Assembly: GCA_965223705.1 (NCBI GenBank)
Contig: OZ245015.1
Coordinates: forward strand, 1,184,001-1,248,000
Origin: Myxococcota bacterium
GTDB taxonomy: Bacteria; Myxococcota_A; UBA9160; UBA6930
Direction: 5' to 3'
Length of the DNA: 64,000 bases
In this document: piece by piece, positions 2,167-13,363 of the stretch
Layout: the number at the start of each line of letters is the position of its first letter
Numbering within the stretch: the stretch's first letter is position 1
The notes under the pieces: generated by a model
The model's input: the letters and a program-made list of their open reading frames with translations, nothing else
What the model was told of the DNA's origin: nothing
Database searches by the model: none
Program-made: the position numbers and the translations under genes

Positions 2167-3619
2167 CTTCCTCAAATACGGCAGAGAGGGCGTCGCGTAC
2201 CGAGACGCAGACGAGCGCGTCAAGGACTATTCGCACGTTCAAGAGAACTTCCCGGCGGAGAAGACCAAGCAGCAGGCGGCGCGTTGTATGGATTGCGGGA
2301 TTCCGTTCTGCAACAACGGCTGCCCGCTCGGGAATATCATCCCCGACTTCAACGATTTGGTTTTCCGGGACAAGTGGGAAGACGCGCTCGTCCGGTTGCA
2401 CTCGACCAACAATTTTCCCGAGTTCACGGGAATGGTGTGTCCGGCTCCCTGTGAGCAAGCGTGCGTGCTGGGAATCAATCAAGACCCGGTCGCTATCAAG
2501 CAGGTCGAGTGGGAGATCGTTCGCAAAGGTTGGGAAGAGGGCTGGATCACACCGGTGCGCCCGGAACGTCGAAGCGGTCGCGCGGTGGCCGTCGTCGGTT
2601 CGGGTCCCGCCGGGCTGTCCGCTGCGCAACAATTGAACCGCGCGGGCCACACCGTCACGGTGTTCGAAAAAAACGATCGTCTCGGCGGTCTGCTGCGCTA
2701 CGGAATTCCGGACTTCAAGCTCGAGAAGTGGGTGATCGATCGTCGGCTCGAGCAGATGCGAGAGGAGGGCGTGTCGTTCCAGACCGGCGTCAACGTCGGT
2801 AGCGATCTCGCCGTTTCGGAGTTGCGCCGAAGTTTCGACGCCGTGCTCCTCGCCATGGGGAGCGAGGTTCCGCGCGATCTCGAGGTGCCGGGTCGCGAGC
2901 TCGACGGCGTTCATTTCGCGATGGAGTTCCTGCCGCAACAGAACCGCCGCGTCGCCGGTGACGTCGTCCCGGACGACGGGGCGATTCGCGCGGACGGGAA
3001 GCACGTGGTGATCTTGGGCGGCGGAGACACCGGCTCCGACTGCATCGGCACGTCTCATCGTCATGGGGCGGCCAGCGTCACGTCGATCGAGTTGCTTCCC
3101 GAACCGCCCGTGGGCCGACACCCGTCGGAGCCGTGGCCGCTTCCCAAGAAGATGTATTTCAACGTATCGAGTTCGCACGCGGAGGGCGGCGAGCGCTCCT
3201 ACGCCATGTTGACGAAAGGGCTGCGGGGCGAGAGCGGGCGCGTCCGTGAGCTTCTGGGCGTCGAAGTCGCTTTTGATCGCGATGAGCTCGACCGGCCGCG
3301 TATGGAGACGATGCGCGAAGTTCCGGGGAGCGAGTTCTCACTTTCCGCCGACCTCGTCCTCTTGGCCATGGGCTTCGTCCATCCGGTACACGACGGATTG
3401 GTCGAAGAGCTCGGTGTCGAGCTCGATCCCCGCGGCAATGTGCAAGCCGACACGAAGCGCTTCACGACCAGCGAGCCCGGTGTATTCGCGGCGGGCGATT
3501 GCCGTCGAGGTCAATCACTCGTCGTCTGGGCGCAGTGGGAAGGACGCGAAGCGGCACGTGCGATCGATCTTTATTTGACCGGCGACTCGCGTTTGCAAAC
3601 GCGTTACGCGCACGTTTAG
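2150..3619 (+). CDS. gltD: glutamate synthase small subunit
   Basis: [10 protein letters not shown] start, [15 protein letters not shown]e-S motif, GSGPAG and GGGDTG nucleotide-binding motifs, GQSLVVWA; follows gltB. Confidence 0.96.
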
Positions 3620-6516: not shown

Positions 6517-6663
6517 TCCGATGAGAGTGACCTGACTCTCATCTGGACGGTGACGGGTCCTTATATATACGCCGCACCCTCGGAACGTCAGGCGTTCCTT
6601 GGGTGCAACTTAGGACTACGAGGGATCGCTCTCTCACGAGCGAGACCTCGAGCCAAATTCAAA

Positions 6664-8221
<1,558 letters not shown>

Positions 8222-8408
8222 GGGAGCATGGGTGAACGCCTCGTGTGTTCACTCGAGCAACCAGGTCAAAGTCGATCCTGCCTTGTGTGCAAACACACGG
8301 TCGCATGAAGTCTGAATCCCGGGTTCTCCCGGTAACTCGTTCAATCGGGGGACTTCGAGATCGATTCCCGCACCGTCGCCACACGCTATTCGTTTTTTGG
8401 AGACAGTC

Positions 8409-8495
8409 CTTGCGGTGCCCGCCGCGGCAAAGCCGCGCCGGCCGCACTACGCAACGCTCCGCGTTGCTGCGCGCGACGCTCCCGCGTCGCTTGCA
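8409..8495 (-). repeat. ~85-bp GC-rich REP-like element, inverted relative to 9059-9142
   Basis: Reverse complement reads TGCAAGCGACGCG...GCGCGCAGC...CGCGGCTTTGCCGCGGCGGG..GCAAG, matching 9059-9142. Confidence 0.6.
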
Positions 8496-8527
8496 AGGAG
8501 TGTCATCGTGAGTTGGATGCTCGATGG

Positions 8528-8604
8528 GGGCCTGTAGCTCAGTTGGTTAGAGCGTCCGCCTGATAAGCGGGAGGTCGATAGTTCAAATCTATCCAGGCCC
8601 ACCA
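8528..8604 (+). tRNA. tRNA-Ile(GAT)
   Basis: GGGCCTGTAGCTCAG...CT-GAT-AA...GTTCAAAT...CAGGCCCACCA cloverleaf in the ITS. Confidence 0.97.
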
Positions 8605-8744
8605 CCATCAGGCGTACCCGCCGTAGCAAGGCAACCTCCAATGCAAGCGGAGTGAGTGCGAAGCACGAACGAAGCGCGCAGTGAGCCGCAGGCGAACGGA
8701 GCGGGGTGGCGACGGCTCTGCCGGCGCCGGGACCACAAGATCCA

Positions 8745-8820
8745 GGGGCTGTAGCTCAGCTGGGAGAGCGCGGGCTTTGCAAGCCTGAGGTCGTCGGTTC
8801 GATCCCGTCCAGCTCCACCA
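8745..8820 (+). tRNA. tRNA-Ala(TGC)
   Basis: GGGGCTGTAGCTCAG...TT-TGC-AA...GGTTCGATCCC...CAGCTCCACCA. Confidence 0.97.
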
Positions 8821-8890
8821 ATTTTTCGCATCTCCGGATGCGTTGCGGATTCTTCGAGAATCCCTCGCCCGACACAGGCGAGCACGATGC

Positions 8891-8921
8891 GGTCTTTGAC
8901 AATCGAATAGCTTTCTGGGTC
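8891..8921 (+). promoter_or_regulatory. ITS boxA-like element and 5' arm of the 23S processing stem
   Basis: GGTCTTTGACAATCGAATAGC resembles the leader copy; AATAGCTTTCTGGGTC (8906-8921) pairs exactly with 13183-13198. Confidence 0.75.
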
Positions 8922-9058
8922 CACGTTTATTTTCGTGGATCGCGCTTTGGCAGAATACACAGCCTAGGGCTGTGTGCTCTGCAGCAGAATGCACAGCCTC
9001 GCGTTGTGCGCTCTGCAAAATGATTAGAGAAAACACAGAGCTTATTGGGCTACGTCCA

Positions 9059-9142
9059 TGCAAGCGACGCGAAAGCGGAGCGCGCAGCGAGGCGTAGCCG
9101 AGCGTAGGCATCGCCGCGGCTTCGCCGCGGCGGGACTGCAAG
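9059..9142 (+). repeat. ~85-bp GC-rich REP-like element
   Basis: TGCAAGCGACGCGAAAGCGGAGCGCGCAGCGAGGCGTAGCCGAGCG...CCGCGGC-TTC-GCCGCGG hairpin; a more diverged copy at ~8642-8732. Confidence 0.6.
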
Positions 9143-9195
9143 AATTAGGCTCTGGTCAAGCAAGTAAGAGCAGACGGTGGATGCCTTGGCACTAG

Positions 9196-9230
<35 letters not shown>

Positions 9231-9593
9231 TCGGGGAGCTGCTAAGCAAGCTTTGATCCGGAGATTTCCGAATGGGGAAACCCGGCTGGGGTCATGCCCA
9301 GTCATCCTGTACTGAATACATAGGTGCAGGAGGCGAACCAGGGGAACTGAAACATCTAAGTACCCTGAGGAAAAGAAATCAATTGAGACTCCCCTAGTAG
9401 CGGCGAGCGAACGGGGAACAGCCCAAACCGGCGGGAAGTGATTCCTTCCGGGGTTGTGGGACTCCAACGTGGGACTCTGAGGGATAGTGGAACGGTCTGG
9501 AAAGTCCGGCCATAGAGGGTGACAGCCCCGTATGCGAAATCCCAAAGAGCTCTAGGAGTATCCCGAGTACCACGGGGCACGGGAAACCCCGTG

Positions 9594-9624
<31 letters not shown>

Positions 9625-10055
9625 GTACTACCTAGTGACCGATAGTGAACCAGTACCGTGAGGGAAAGGCGAAAAGAACCCCGGTGAGGGGAGTGAAATA
9701 GATCCTGAAACCGTTTGCTTACATCCAGTGGGAGCACTATGGGGCTTGCCCCAAGTGTGACTGCGTACCTTTTGTTTAATGGGTCCGCGAGTTACTCCTC
9801 AGTAGCAAGGTTAAGCCGTTAGGTGTAGCCGTAGCGAAAGCGAGTCTGAATAGGGCGTTTAGTTGCTGGGGGTAGACCCGAAACCGAGTGATCTAGCCAT
9901 GGCCAGGTTGAAGCTCAGGTAAAACTGAGTGGAGGACCGAACCGTAGAAGGTTGAAAACTTCCCGGATGAGCTGTGGCTAGGGGTGAAAGGCCAATCAAA
10001 CTCGGAGATAGCTGGTTCTCCCCGAAATATATTGAGGTATAGCCTCATGTATCAC

Positions 10056-10102
<47 letters not shown>

Positions 10103-10176
10103 GAACCCAATCAAACTCCGAATACCGGCAAGTGCCAGCATGGGAGTCAGACTACGGGCGATAAGGTTCGTGGTCG

Positions 10177-10211
<35 letters not shown>

Positions 10212-10977
10212 CAAATCTACGCTAAGTGGGAAAGGAAGTGGGATTGCTGATACAACCAGGATGTTGGCTTAGAAGCAGCCACCATTTAAAAAGTGCGTAA
10301 TAGCTTACTGGTCTAGTGAACCCGCGCCGAAAATGTAACGGGGCTAAAGCGTAGTACCGAAGCTGCGGAGCCATACTTTGTATGGTTGGTAGGGGAGCGT
10401 TCTAGTAACTGTGAAGCTCGACGGTAACGACGGGTGGAGATGCTGGAAGTGCTTATGCGGACACGAGTAGCGATAAAGCAGGTGAGAAACCTGCTCGCCG
10501 TAAACCTAAGGGTTCCTGAGTAAAGCTAATCTTCTCAGGGTTAGTCGGCCCCTAAGCCGAGGGCGAAAGCCGTAGGTGATGGGAAACGGGTTAATATTCC
10601 CGTACCAGTAGATAAGTGTTTGACCGATGGGGGAACGGAGAAGGGTAGCCTGGCCGGGTGTTGGACATCCCGGTTTAAACCTGTAGGCAGGAGCTGTAGG
10701 AAAATCCGCAGCCCCGCTAATGCCGAGAGGTGATACCGAGGCCTTCGGGCCATAAAGCAGGTGATCCCACGCTTCCTAGAAAAGCCTCTAAGGGAGCTTG
10801 TCTGCTGACCGTACCGTAAACCGACACAGGTAGGTGGGCAGAGCATGCCAAGGCGCTTGAGAGAACCCTGGTTAAGGAACTCGGCAAATTGACACCGTAA
10901 CTTCGGGAGAAGGTGTGCCTCGGTTGGTGAAGGGACTTGCTCCCCGAGCTGGCTGAGGTTGCAGAGAGCAGGGGGTA

Positions 10978-11014
<37 letters not shown>

Positions 11015-11098
11015 AATAGAGGACGTATAGGGTCTGACGCCTGCCCGGTGCCGGAAGGTTAAGGGGACCTGTTAGCTCTTCGGAGCGAAGCGGTGAAC

Positions 11099-11129
<31 letters not shown>

Positions 11130-11884
11130 GAACCGTTGTAGTTACGTAAATAAATTCGGCCATATGCTGGGATACCCAGTCGAAGCGCGGGTACTCGCCA
11201 CTAGGAGCCAAGGCTCCGAAGAAGGTGGCAGTGAAAACCCCACGCGGATGGGCAATCAGCAGGAAAGGCTCGAGCCAATGCTCAAAGTTCGCCAGATAGA
11301 GCCCAAGATAGGGTGGTATCTCGCGGGTTTCACTGACGGCGAAGGAAGCTTCAACGTTTCCTTTCGTGCACGTCACGACTACAAGAACCCGTGGAAGATC
11401 TCACTCTGCTTCAACATCTCTCAAAAGGACCCTGTCATCCTCTCGCTGTTCAAGCGGCATCTCCACTGCGGAACGATGCGGCAGCGGAAGGACGGCATCT
11501 GGTACTTCGAAGTCAACAACTTCGAGGCCATCAAAGAGAATGTCATTCCTTTCTTCAATCGCTTTGGATTTCTTTCAGCGAAGAAGAAACGCGACTTCAG
11601 CAAGTTCAAACAACTCGCGAAGATCGTGGAAGAGGGGCGACACCTCGAAAAAGAAGGGGTTCGAGAGATACTGAAAATTCGAGAGGACATGAACGACGGC
11701 GGCAAGCGGCGGTATTCGGATGAGGACATCCTCAGCCGAATCGAGAATCCCCAGAGACCATACGCCGAACCAGCCAACAACGAAGTTGAAGCGCTGGATG
11801 ATATGGTCCGATCTCCGCGGGAACGCGGAGAGTCAGACGGAAACGATCTGACCACTCACCAACAAGGTGAGTCGTAACAACTCG
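11130..11884 (+). mobile_element. group I intron at 23S site equivalent to L1917 (755 nt), carrying a homing endonuclease
   Basis: 5' exon ends in U, intron ends in G; guide sequence ACCGTTGTAGTT pairs with 5' exon AACTAT (U.G) and 3' exon AACGGT; core elements ATGCTGGGA, AATCAGCAGG, CAGAGACCATACGCC, GATATGGTCCG; P3 TTCGGC/GCCGAA. Confidence 0.95.
11278..11877 (+). CDS. single-motif LAGLIDADG homing endonuclease (intron-encoded)
   Basis: YLAGFTDGEGSF, FNISQKD, VIPFF, K..DF..F motifs; AGGAAAGG RBS before ATG 11278 (alternative ATG 11248); lower GC than the host genes. Confidence 0.92.
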   Translation: MLKVRQIEPKIGWYLAGFTDGEGSFNVSFRARHDYKNPWKISLCFNISQKDPVILSLFKRHLHCGTMRQRKDGIWYFEVNNFEAIKENVIPFFNRFGFLSAKKKRDFSKFKQLAKIVEEGRHLEKEGVREILKIREDMNDGGKRRYSDEDILSRIENPQRPYAEPANNEVEALDDMVRSPRERGESDGNDLTTHQQGES

Positions 11885-11898
11885 AACGGTCCTAAGGT

Positions 11899-12174
11899 TG
11901 CATTGCAGCCCTCGCGCGTCGAAAGGCACGCGATGCATCTGGCTGTATGCTGGGAAGTCTGAGTATCTGGTGGTACTCGCTCCGCATGGAGCAGTGATAA
12001 TCCATCCAGTGCAGACAATCAGCAGGGAAGTTCATCGAAACGGCGGTGAACCCCTCAGAGACTGTACGCCGGACATCCCTCGGGATGATGAGACAGTCCG
12101 TTCCTCATGGCGACATGAGGAGGTCGACAGAAATGATCGACCCGCTCCGCTTCGGCGGAGAGGTAACAGTAAAG
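11899..12174 (+). mobile_element. group I intron at 23S site equivalent to L1931 (276 nt), no ORF
   Basis: Inserted after AAGGT, ends in G before AGCGAAATT; core ATGCTGGGA, AATCAGCAGG, CAGAGACTGTACGCC, GAGACAGTCCG; P3 TCTGGC/GCCGGA. Confidence 0.93.
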
Positions 12175-12221
<47 letters not shown>

Positions 12222-12479
12222 CGACTTCCCCACTGTCTCAACCAGGGACTCAGCGAAAATGAATTGCCGGTGAAGATGCCGGCGACCCGCGGCAGGACGG
12301 AAAGACCCCGTGCACCTTTACTACAACTTCGCAGTGATCATCGATTTAGCACGTGTAGGATAGGTGGGAGGCTTTGAAGCCGGGACGCCAGTCTCGGTGG
12401 AGCCAACCTTGAAATACCACCCTTGTTGTGTTGCTGATCTAACCTAGGCCCGTTATCCGGGTCGGGGACATTGCGTGGT

Positions 12480-12526
<47 letters not shown>

Positions 12527-12667
12527 GCGAAGGTTCTCTCACGCTGATTGGAAACCAGCGGAAGAGTGCAAAGGCATAAGAGAGCCTGACTGCGAGACAG
12601 ACATGTCGAGCAGGTGGGAAACCAGGTCTTAGTGATCCGGTGGTTCCGTATGGAAGGGCCATCGCTT

Positions 12668-12700
<33 letters not shown>

Positions 12701-12707
12701 TATCTCT

Positions 12708-12769
<62 letters not shown>

Positions 12770-12779
12770 GTGGAGCAGC

Positions 12780-12813
<34 letters not shown>

Positions 12814-12829
12814 CACGCGAGCTGGGTTT

Positions 12830-12875
<46 letters not shown>

Positions 12876-12888
12876 GATTTGAAGGGAG

Positions 12889-12933
<45 letters not shown>

Positions 12934-12978
12934 CCGGTTGTTCCGCCAGGAGCACCGCCGGGTAGCCATGTTCGGATG

Positions 12979-13011
<33 letters not shown>

Positions 13012-13246
13012 CACCCTAAGATGAGATCTCCCTGGAACTTCGGTTCCCTGAAGGGCCGTCCGAGACGAGGACGTCGATAGGTCGGAGGTGGAAGCGCAGC
13101 AATGTGTGGAGCTGACCGATACTAATCGCCCGTGAGGCTTGACCAAAGCCTTTGCAGTCGGCGCGACCCATGAGATGAACGTGACCCAGAAAGCTATTTG
13201 GTTGATCAAAGACCGGCGGCACGAGCCGCGGTTTTGAACACGGTTT

Positions 13247-13363
13247 TCCCACCGTTCATAGAGCGGGGGCCACACCCGTTCCCATACCGAACACGGAAGT
13301 TAAGCCCCGCTTCGGCGATGGTACTGCCGGGTTTCCCGGTGGGAGAGTAGCGCGACGGTGGGA
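13247..13363 (+). rRNA. rrf: 5S rRNA
   Basis: CCCGTTCCCATACCGAACACGGAAGTTAAG, GATGGTACTG, GGGAGAGTAG; terminal stem TCCCACCGT/ACGGTGGGA. Confidence 0.96.

What the first reader, a model, noticed from the sequence alone, without database searches (positions are those of the whole stretch)
11130..12174. Two group I introns in 23S rRNA separated by a 14-nt micro-exon
Seen: inserts of 755 and 276 nt at sites equivalent to L1917 and L1931 leave AACGGTCCTAAGGT (11885-11898) as an exon. Both have the U before the 5' splice site, a terminal G and intact core elements. P7 covaries between them (GACCA/TGGTC versus GACTG/CAGTC), which argues that both are under selection to splice. Established: bacterial rRNA group I introns are rare, and these sites lie in the essential helix 69-70 region. 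Inference: the exon's 5' part pairs with intron 1 (P10) and its 3' part with intron 2 (P1), so splicing order and folding may be coupled.
Basis: partly seen in the sequence, partly recalled or inferred. Interest (0 to 1): 0.75.

Follow-up and report, generated by a model that had tools for sequence, protein, structure and literature searches.

The report
Two adjacent 23S rRNA self-splicing introns
The only large-subunit ribosomal RNA gene of this uncultured bacterium is interrupted by two self-splicing introns 14 bases apart, the first carrying a DNA-cutting mobility gene; this is real, but the same arrangement is already published and is common in public genomes.

Summary
Single contigs from two samples span both, so it is not a collapse of rRNA copies. 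Best reading: two ordinary site-specific introns that each splice on their own, using non-overlapping parts of the exon (P10: nt 1-6; P1: nt 12-14). Coupled splicing is not supported: close relatives of each intron occur alone, and guide sequences of paired and solitary introns do not differ. Splicing itself was not observed here. The same pair is published (Synechococcus sp. C9; Navicula plastid) and common: 34 of 77 sampled L1931 introns have an L1917 neighbour. New host (probably Myxococcota-related), known kind. Side leads: three other tandem pairs carry the endonuclease of the neighbouring site, and 24 of 96 L1931 introns lack the terminal G.

The parts
9154..11129 (+). 23S rRNA 5' exon, ending at U1917 in the loop of helix 69; its last 9 nt form P1 of intron 1
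   Evidence: Rfam LSU model; P1 11121-11129/11138-11146
11130..11884 (+). Group I intron 1 (L1917, 755 nt, no P2, terminal G). P10 11132-11137, P3 11155-11160/11764-11769, P4 11165-11169/11257-11261, P7 11756-11760/11804-11808, P9 11813-11830
11278..11877 (+). Single-motif LAGLIDADG homing endonuclease gene (199 aa from the inferred ATG at 11278) inserted in P6; frame runs on through P7, P8 and P9 and stops 7 nt before the 3' splice site
   Evidence: PF00961 E 3.8e-18; dN about 0.18 against dS above 2 with nearest relatives; start codon inferred from alignment with relatives and the SD-like site
11262..11268 (+). Shine-Dalgarno-like GGAAAGG, 9 nt before the ATG, overlapping the 5' strand of P6 (inferred ribosome-binding site)
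   Evidence: 7 of 7 pairs with the 3' tail of this genome's 16S, 8214-8220
11885..11898 (+). 14-nt exon AACGGTCCTAAGGT (23S 1918-1931): 3' strand of helix 69 and following loop; nt 1-6 in P10 of intron 1, nt 12-14 in P1 of intron 2
11899..12174 (+). Group I intron 2 (L1931, 276 nt, no ORF, has a P2 hairpin, terminal G). P1 11896-11901/11905-11910, P10 11903-11906, P3 11938-11943/12068-12073, P4 11948-11952/12020-12024, P6a 12030-12051, P7 12060-12064/12094-12098, P8 12074-12087, P9 12103-12120
   Evidence: RF00028 61.1 bits; fold z -4.8
12175..13146 (+). 23S rRNA 3' exon, starting at A1932; no further large insert
6661..13363 (+). Host operon: 16S, tRNA-Ile, tRNA-Ala, 23S, 5S; the only rRNA operon in the assembly

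Best explanation
Two ordinary, site-specific group I introns sit at the known sites L1917 and L1931 of the only 23S gene. Each folds its own core and is removed from pre-rRNA by the standard two guanosine-dependent transesterifications, in either order; the 14-nt exon is ligated on both sides and helix 69 can form only after intron 1 is out. Intron 1 is the mobile one: its P6 LAGLIDADG gene should give a homodimeric endonuclease that cuts intron-free L1917 alleles. Intron 2 descends from L1931 introns that carried an endonuclease gene in P6 and has lost it cleanly. Shown here: anatomy, pairings, co-location, single copy, family placement, purifying selection on the endonuclease lineage. Inferred: splicing in this organism, independence of order, endonuclease activity and target.
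For: All core and splice-site helices pair. One rRNA operon, so unspliced helix 69 would leave no working 23S (established knowledge). P10 of intron 1 and P1 of intron 2 leave 5 exon bases between them. Nearest relatives of intron 1 (L004, L007, about 72% identity) have no L1931 neighbour; a 77% relative of intron 2 (L257) has no L1917 neighbour. Intron 2's best matches are L1931 introns (L139 81%, L257 77%, L267 73%); the endonuclease groups with L1917 enzymes. A relative at the same junction (L036, enzyme 60% identical) is efficiently removed in vivo: intron coverage 14 versus 263,770 for mature 23S (PMC13153191). No difference between paired and solitary guide sequences.
Against: No RNA from this organism was found; the RNA run laid had no cover of either intron and its intron-free joints come from other bacteria. 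Intron 2's P1 uses only 3 exon bases (-2.5 kcal/mol for the exon part), weaker than the 7 of most L1931 introns, so it may splice slowly or need help. Intron 1's guide can also pair 4 bp with the exon after intron 2 (-3.1 versus -7.3 kcal/mol), so some exon skipping is possible. Contig depth over the introns was 0.4-0.8 of the depth on an upstream exon stretch, which the tool says is no copy number but leaves an intron-free relative or strain open.
Confidence: 0.85

Rival explanations
1. Splicing of the two introns is obligately ordered or coupled through the shared 14-nt exon, or the pair yields a regulated exon-skipped product.
For: The exon is short and both ribozymes must dock on it; P1 of intron 2 is weak and intron 1's guide can pair with the downstream exon. 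Exon skipping across a 34-nt exon is reported for the Coxiella 23S pair (as summarised in the introduction of PMC10136302).
Against: Helices do not overlap; relatives of both introns occur alone; P10 discrimination in 48 paired versus 47 solitary L1917 introns p 0.94, P1 length in 56 paired versus 46 solitary L1931 introns p 0.41. A kinetic preference for one order would not show in these tests.
Confidence: 0.1
2. About spread, not splicing (compatible with the best explanation): the pair moves as one cassette, with the endonuclease-less intron 2 carried along by co-conversion when intron 1 homes.
For: The sites co-occur more than expected: 2 of 134 resolved genomes of the phylum have both against 5 and 6 with each (Fisher p 0.016); 34 of 77 L1931 introns have an L1917 neighbour. 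Distances between L1917 cores and L1931 cores correlate after allowing for host distance (partial r 0.22, p 0.047, 17 collapsed pairs). Same-phylum genome G312 has the same layout and is among the nearest for both introns. Short L1931 introns sit beside an endonuclease-bearing L1917 intron in 6 of 30 cases, endonuclease-bearing ones in 2 of 40 (p 0.066).
Against: Short L1931 introns are no more often paired than endonuclease-bearing ones (13 of 30 versus 18 of 40, p 1.0). Shared vertical descent or permissive hosts explain the same pattern; host distance was measured on only about 400 nt, 23 of 49 pairs were dropped for short or interrupted flanks or unparsed cores, and kin are not independent.
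Confidence: 0.3
3. The introns are not ligated out; the 23S is fragmented or one intron is a dead remnant.
For: No direct RNA evidence here. Some relatives lack the terminal G, so decayed members may exist in the family.
Against: Both introns here keep U.G, terminal G and the G-C pair of the guanosine site; the only difference seen in the runs within the introns (11957 G>A) lies outside the listed helices; single operon.
Confidence: 0.04
4. Assembly artefact: two introns from different rRNA copies or organisms collapsed into one locus.
For: rRNA regions of metagenomes are prone to chimeras; the runs may include the source sample.
Against: Single contigs span 11104/11114-12201 in three runs from two samples; one operon on a 4.54-Mb contig; the same layout in many other genomes.
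Confidence: 0.01

Closest known systems
Synechococcus sp. C9 23S introns L1917, L1931 and L2593 (Haugen et al. 2007, PMC1995217; abstract, background, results, conclusion and part of methods read)
   Same: Group I introns at L1917 and L1931 in one bacterial 23S gene, hence the same 14-nt exon; L1917 intron of 743 nt with a single-motif LAGLIDADG ORF that starts in P6 and runs through P7, P3 and P8 into P9; no P2 in the L1917 intron.
   Different: There both introns carry an endonuclease gene and lack P2, and a third intron is present; here intron 2 has no ORF and has a P2 hairpin, and the host is not a cyanobacterium.
Navicula vanseea plastid rrl introns L1917 and L1931, IB4 (PMC11019260; passages read)
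   Same: Same two sites in one gene.
   Different: Plastid; both introns carry LAGLIDADG genes.
Ca. Velamenicoccus archaeovorus 23S L1917 intron (PMC13153191; abstract, introduction, results and start of discussion read; locus L036)
   Same: Same insertion point and endonuclease family (60% identity); shown to be removed from nearly all 23S molecules in vivo.
   Different: Solitary: no L1931 intron.
Coxiella burnetii Cbu.L1917 and Cbu.L1951 (seen only through passages of PMC4990558 and the introduction of PMC10136302; the primary paper was not held)
   Same: Two self-splicing introns around a short exon of 23S; exon skipping detected by RT-PCR.
   Different: 34-nt exon, second site L1951; terminal A in Cbu.L1917 is recalled, not read.
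CPR 23S group I introns with LAGLIDADG_1 at 1917, 1931, 1952, 2593, 2604, 2657 (PMC11270868; passages and first part of section 5 read)
   Same: Both sites are listed as frequent sites with LAGLIDADG_1; ORF-less group I introns are common.
   Different: Host here is not CPR; that paper's passages do not discuss the 14-nt exon.

Membership tests
Group I intron (both inserts) | U.G pair in P1 at the 5' splice site | tested here: met
   P1 9 bp (intron 1), 6 bp of which 3 exon bases (intron 2)
Group I intron (both inserts) | Core P3, P4, P6, P7, P8, P9 with the guanosine-site G-C pair | tested here: met
   P6 registers were mis-set and corrected; intron 1 P6a (11269-11273/11741-11745) read
Group I intron (both inserts) | Terminal G and P10 at the 3' splice site | tested here: met
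   G11884, G12174; P10 6 bp and 4 bp
Group I intron (both inserts) | Score above the Rfam RF00028 gathering threshold | tested here: inconclusive
   met by intron 2 (61.1 bits), not by intron 1 (16.9 bits, split by its ORF); intron 1 recovered by a family profile
Group I intron (both inserts) | Guanosine-dependent self-splicing with exon ligation | not testable with these tools
   no RNA of this organism among the runs found
23S L1917 intron family | Insertion after U1917, with a related core and a site-specific endonuclease clade | tested here: met
   same junction as L036, published as position 1917; enzyme in the clade of 79 L1917 rows (quick tree)
23S L1931 intron family | Insertion 14 nt downstream, after U1931, core closest to other L1931 introns | tested here: met
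   (L1931 profile 171 bits versus L1917 profile 142 bits)
Subgroup IB4 as published for L1917/L1931 | No P2 element | tested here: inconclusive
   intron 1 has no room for P2 (8 nt between P1 and P3); intron 2 has a P2 hairpin, so it is not filed as IB4; no subgroup models available
Single-motif LAGLIDADG homing endonuclease | One LAGLIDADG motif with acidic catalytic residue, intact alpha-beta domain | tested here: met
   PF00961 positions 1-100 of 102; motif LAGFTDGEG; matches to solved LAGLIDADG enzymes down to E 2e-33
Single-motif LAGLIDADG homing endonuclease | Homodimer that cleaves the intron-free site | not testable with these tools
   needs a cleavage assay

The most novel reading that the evidence does not exclude
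Tandem L1917/L1931 introns behave as one mobile cassette that needs only one endonuclease gene, and that gene can move between the P6 loops of the two neighbours while keeping its old target. The window (enzyme in L1917, none in L1931) would be one state of this system; L049 and L202 (L1917-type enzyme inside the L1931 intron, L1917 intron empty) and L142 (the reverse) would be others, in which each intron depends on the other, one for mobility and one for protection from self-cleavage.
Probability: 0.25. Interest if true: 0.45.

Novelty: new member of a known kind. Interest (0 to 1): 0.15.

Why it matters
As it stands it adds one host, probably near the Myxococcota, to a known and common arrangement, and reminds that such introns are much less rare outside cultured bacteria than older papers suggest (10 of 148 genomes of the phylum with a match to this region had an intron at one or both sites). 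The pair is a compact natural substrate for asking how two ribozymes share a 14-nt exon of an essential helix and avoid skipping it. If the cassette reading holds, it would give a simple route by which endonuclease genes change introns without changing targets.

Tried and rejected
Splicing from public RNA: the ten runs on record as RNA held only 0.24-0.31 of the words; the one laid (X4) had no cover of either intron, and its joints over the introns are intron-free 23S of other bacteria, so they say nothing. Similar intron-skipping joints in the three holder runs have short sides (22-26 letters) and were set aside. Intron 2 as a recent duplicate of intron 1: rejected, only short core motifs match. 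Endonuclease-less L1931 introns needing an L1917 neighbour: rejected (17 of 30 are solitary). The open frame over the whole of intron 1 from an ATG across the 5' splice site (11128): 2 of 75 L1917 introns, the window's included, are open from intron start past the S element, so taken as chance. Viral contigs: 23 matches to the exon pattern, none in rRNA context. Two same-genus genomes gave no match to the region (75-87% complete), so vertical inheritance in the genus could not be tested. The endonuclease tree is the quick version; the careful search did not finish. The automated P10 count mis-assigned guides for many L1917 introns and is not used. Two primary papers (Coxiella exon skipping; spread of LAGLIDADG genes in rDNA) were not in the library. 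No structure or complex prediction was run. No supplements were read.

Full report
What is there. The window holds one rRNA operon (16S 6661-8218, tRNA-Ile, tRNA-Ala, 23S 9154-13146, 5S), and it is the only one in the 4.56-Mb, two-contig assembly. The Rfam model of bacterial 23S puts two inserts in helix 69 and just after it. The sequence gives them as 11130-11884 (755 nt) and 11899-12174 (276 nt) around AACGGTCCTAAGGT, and removal leaves 2962 nt. The numbering L1917 is anchored by locus L036, which has the same junction and is published as position 1917 (PMC13153191); L1931 follows 14 nt later. The exons are closest to a Myxococcota MAG among the 80 named loci (86-88% identity), so the host is probably in or near that group; this is an inference from those 80 loci only.

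Both inserts are group I introns. Intron 2 passes the Rfam threshold (61.1 bits) and folds better than all 100 shuffles (z -4.8). Intron 1 does not pass Rfam (16.9 bits for its 3' half) because an ORF sits in P6, but profiles built from 22 short L1917 and 47 short L1931 introns, window excluded, find its two halves and intron 2 and nothing else in the genome. P1, P3, P4, P7, P9 and P10 pair fully in both; P8 pairs 5 of 6 and 6 of 6; P6 was fixed. Intron 1 has no P2, intron 2 has one.

Intron 1 encodes a single-motif LAGLIDADG endonuclease (PF00961, E 3.8e-18; 70 solved-structure sequences matched). The likely start is ATG 11278, 9 nt after a GGAAAGG that pairs 7 of 7 with this genome's 16S tail and overlaps P6, so translation may compete with folding (inference). 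The frame runs through P7-P9, as published for Synechococcus C9; in 55 of 75 L1917 introns it passes the 5' strand of P7. Against eight relatives dN is 0.18-0.28 with dS above 2 or saturated, so the lineage is under purifying selection. Intron 2 has no such gene; its best matches are L1931 introns (L139 81%, L257 77%, L267 73%), and the match to endonuclease-bearing L210 is split at P6, so it most likely lost a P6 gene.

How it most likely works. Each intron has its own guide and core and should splice by the standard pathway (established knowledge; not observed here). P10 of intron 1 uses exon nt 1-6 and P1 of intron 2 uses nt 12-14, so both can form at once. P1 and P10 of intron 1 take both strands of helix 69, which can form only afterwards (inference from the pairings). 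A relative at the same site is removed from almost all 23S molecules in vivo (coverage 14 versus 263,770; PMC13153191). With one operon, failure would be lethal (inference). Against this stand the lack of RNA data, a weak P1 in intron 2 and a possible 4-bp mis-pairing of intron 1's guide with the exon after intron 2 (-3.1 versus -7.3 kcal/mol); skipping of a 34-nt exon is reported for Coxiella (second-hand).

Is splicing coupled? No sign of it. The nearest relatives of intron 1 (L004, L007) and a near relative of intron 2 (L257) stand alone with the same exon bases. Guide strength for the right versus the skipped exon is the same in 48 paired and 47 solitary L1917 introns (p 0.94; rows sharing their first 40 nt were merged, which put the window's own intron under a solitary twin), and P1 length is the same in 56 paired and 46 solitary L1931 introns (p 0.41). 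The P7 argument is only half right: of 201 distinct complete introns 196 were parsed, and compensated P7 variants are common, but GACCA/TGGTC (14 at L1917, 10 at L1931) and GACTG/CAGTC (8 and 12) both occur at both sites.

How common. Of 92 GTDB loci with a relative of the endonuclease 80 were kept; 75 gave a complete L1917 intron and 24 of these a complete L1931 intron, 17 of them 305 nt or shorter; nine of the 24 are close gammaproteobacterial kin. A metagenome scan anchored on L1931 stopped at 120 matches and fetched 80; 3 were dropped as not rRNA; of 77, 34 have an intron at L1917 (6 cut by a contig end), 41 have none and 2 have one after 1911. That pattern misses L1931 introns with another P motif. 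Among 401 genomes of the phylum 148 matched the region; by my reading of the rows and follow-ups, 10 including the window's genome have an intron at one or both sites, 3 have both (G000, G312, G007, the last also holding an intron-free copy on another contig), and 13 were unresolved, one of which (G262) later proved intron-free. Most of the 26 close relatives with a match were intron-free; G030 and G042 have short L1917 introns. The pair is published for Synechococcus sp. C9 (PMC1995217) and a diatom plastid (PMC11019260), the only two papers holding all three terms of search, and both sites are frequent in CPR bacteria (PMC11270868). Earlier notes of this scan reached the same verdict for other genomes; I treat them as leads only.

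The most novel thread. The two sites co-occur more than chance (p 0.016 in the phylum sample), and the cores of paired introns co-vary weakly after allowing for host distance (partial r 0.44, p 0.001 for 26 of 49 pairs; 0.22, p 0.047 after collapsing to 17). In a quick tree of 122 endonucleases the clades follow the site with three exceptions, all in tandem pairs whose other intron is empty: L049 and L202 carry an L1917-type enzyme (67% and 63% identical to the window's) in the L1931 intron, and L142 the reverse. Only two of the three are informative about the neighbour, since L142 was found through its L1931 intron. This fits a cassette sharing one endonuclease, but short L1931 introns are not more often paired than endonuclease-bearing ones (13 of 30 versus 18 of 40), and shared descent or permissive hosts remain as likely. 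I did not find the swap described in the listings of searches; movement of such genes among neighbouring rDNA sites was, from recall, discussed by Haugen and Bhattacharya 2004, which I could not read.

Verdict. Observation confirmed; interpretation partly supported; a new member of a known and common kind. Interest 0.15.

Noticed in passing
L049 (introns at 1925-2340 and 2355-3123), L202, L142: Endonuclease gene sits in the P6 of the 'wrong' intron of a tandem pair: L1917-type enzyme in the L1931 intron (L049, L202), L1931-type enzyme in the L1917 intron (L142); the other intron is empty in each case.
   Followed up: partly
L136, L141, L144-L146, L155, L160, L165, L170, L172, L181, L184, L188, L190, L192, L194, L195, L198, L201, L202, L204, L205, L213, L063: 24 of 96 distinct complete L1931 introns end in A (15), C (8) or T (1) instead of G, and 7 of 105 L1917 introns end in A, with exact exon junctions on both sides. 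Most are metagenome contigs, unchecked against reads. Search one search found no paper with 4 of its 5 terms.
   Followed up: partly
L137 and L207, upstream of the exon match: A short group I-like intron appears to be inserted after U1911 (6 nt before 1917), together with an L1931 intron.
   Followed up: partly
window 11276-11741, run X2: One contig joins the two sides of intron 1's P6a with four letters between, as an endonuclease-free version would; only 24 letters on the short side, so it may be another organism's intron.
   Followed up: no
window 11957: G>A difference inside intron 2 in two of three holder runs, including one of two runs of the same sample.
   Followed up: no
window 11128-11877: The whole of intron 1 is one stop-free frame starting at an ATG that spans the 5' splice site; rare among relatives (2 of 75), taken as chance.
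   Followed up: yes
L114-L116, L118, L119, L121, L122, L124, L126-L130, L133 at about 1180-1230: Many viral contigs share a conserved non-rRNA element containing 16-18 nt identical to the helix 69-70 stretch of 23S; no Rfam family in the five loci tested. Unexplained.
   Followed up: partly
G007 contigs C155 and C8 (L271, L273): One same-family genome holds both a two-intron 23S fragment and an intron-free copy with different exon identity to the window (95% versus 85%), possibly contamination.
   Followed up: partly
G159, G117 (L256, L258): L1931 intron with the endonuclease in P8 plus a further intron about 20-24 nt downstream (L1951-type), showing at least two L1931 intron lineages in the phylum.
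   Followed up: no
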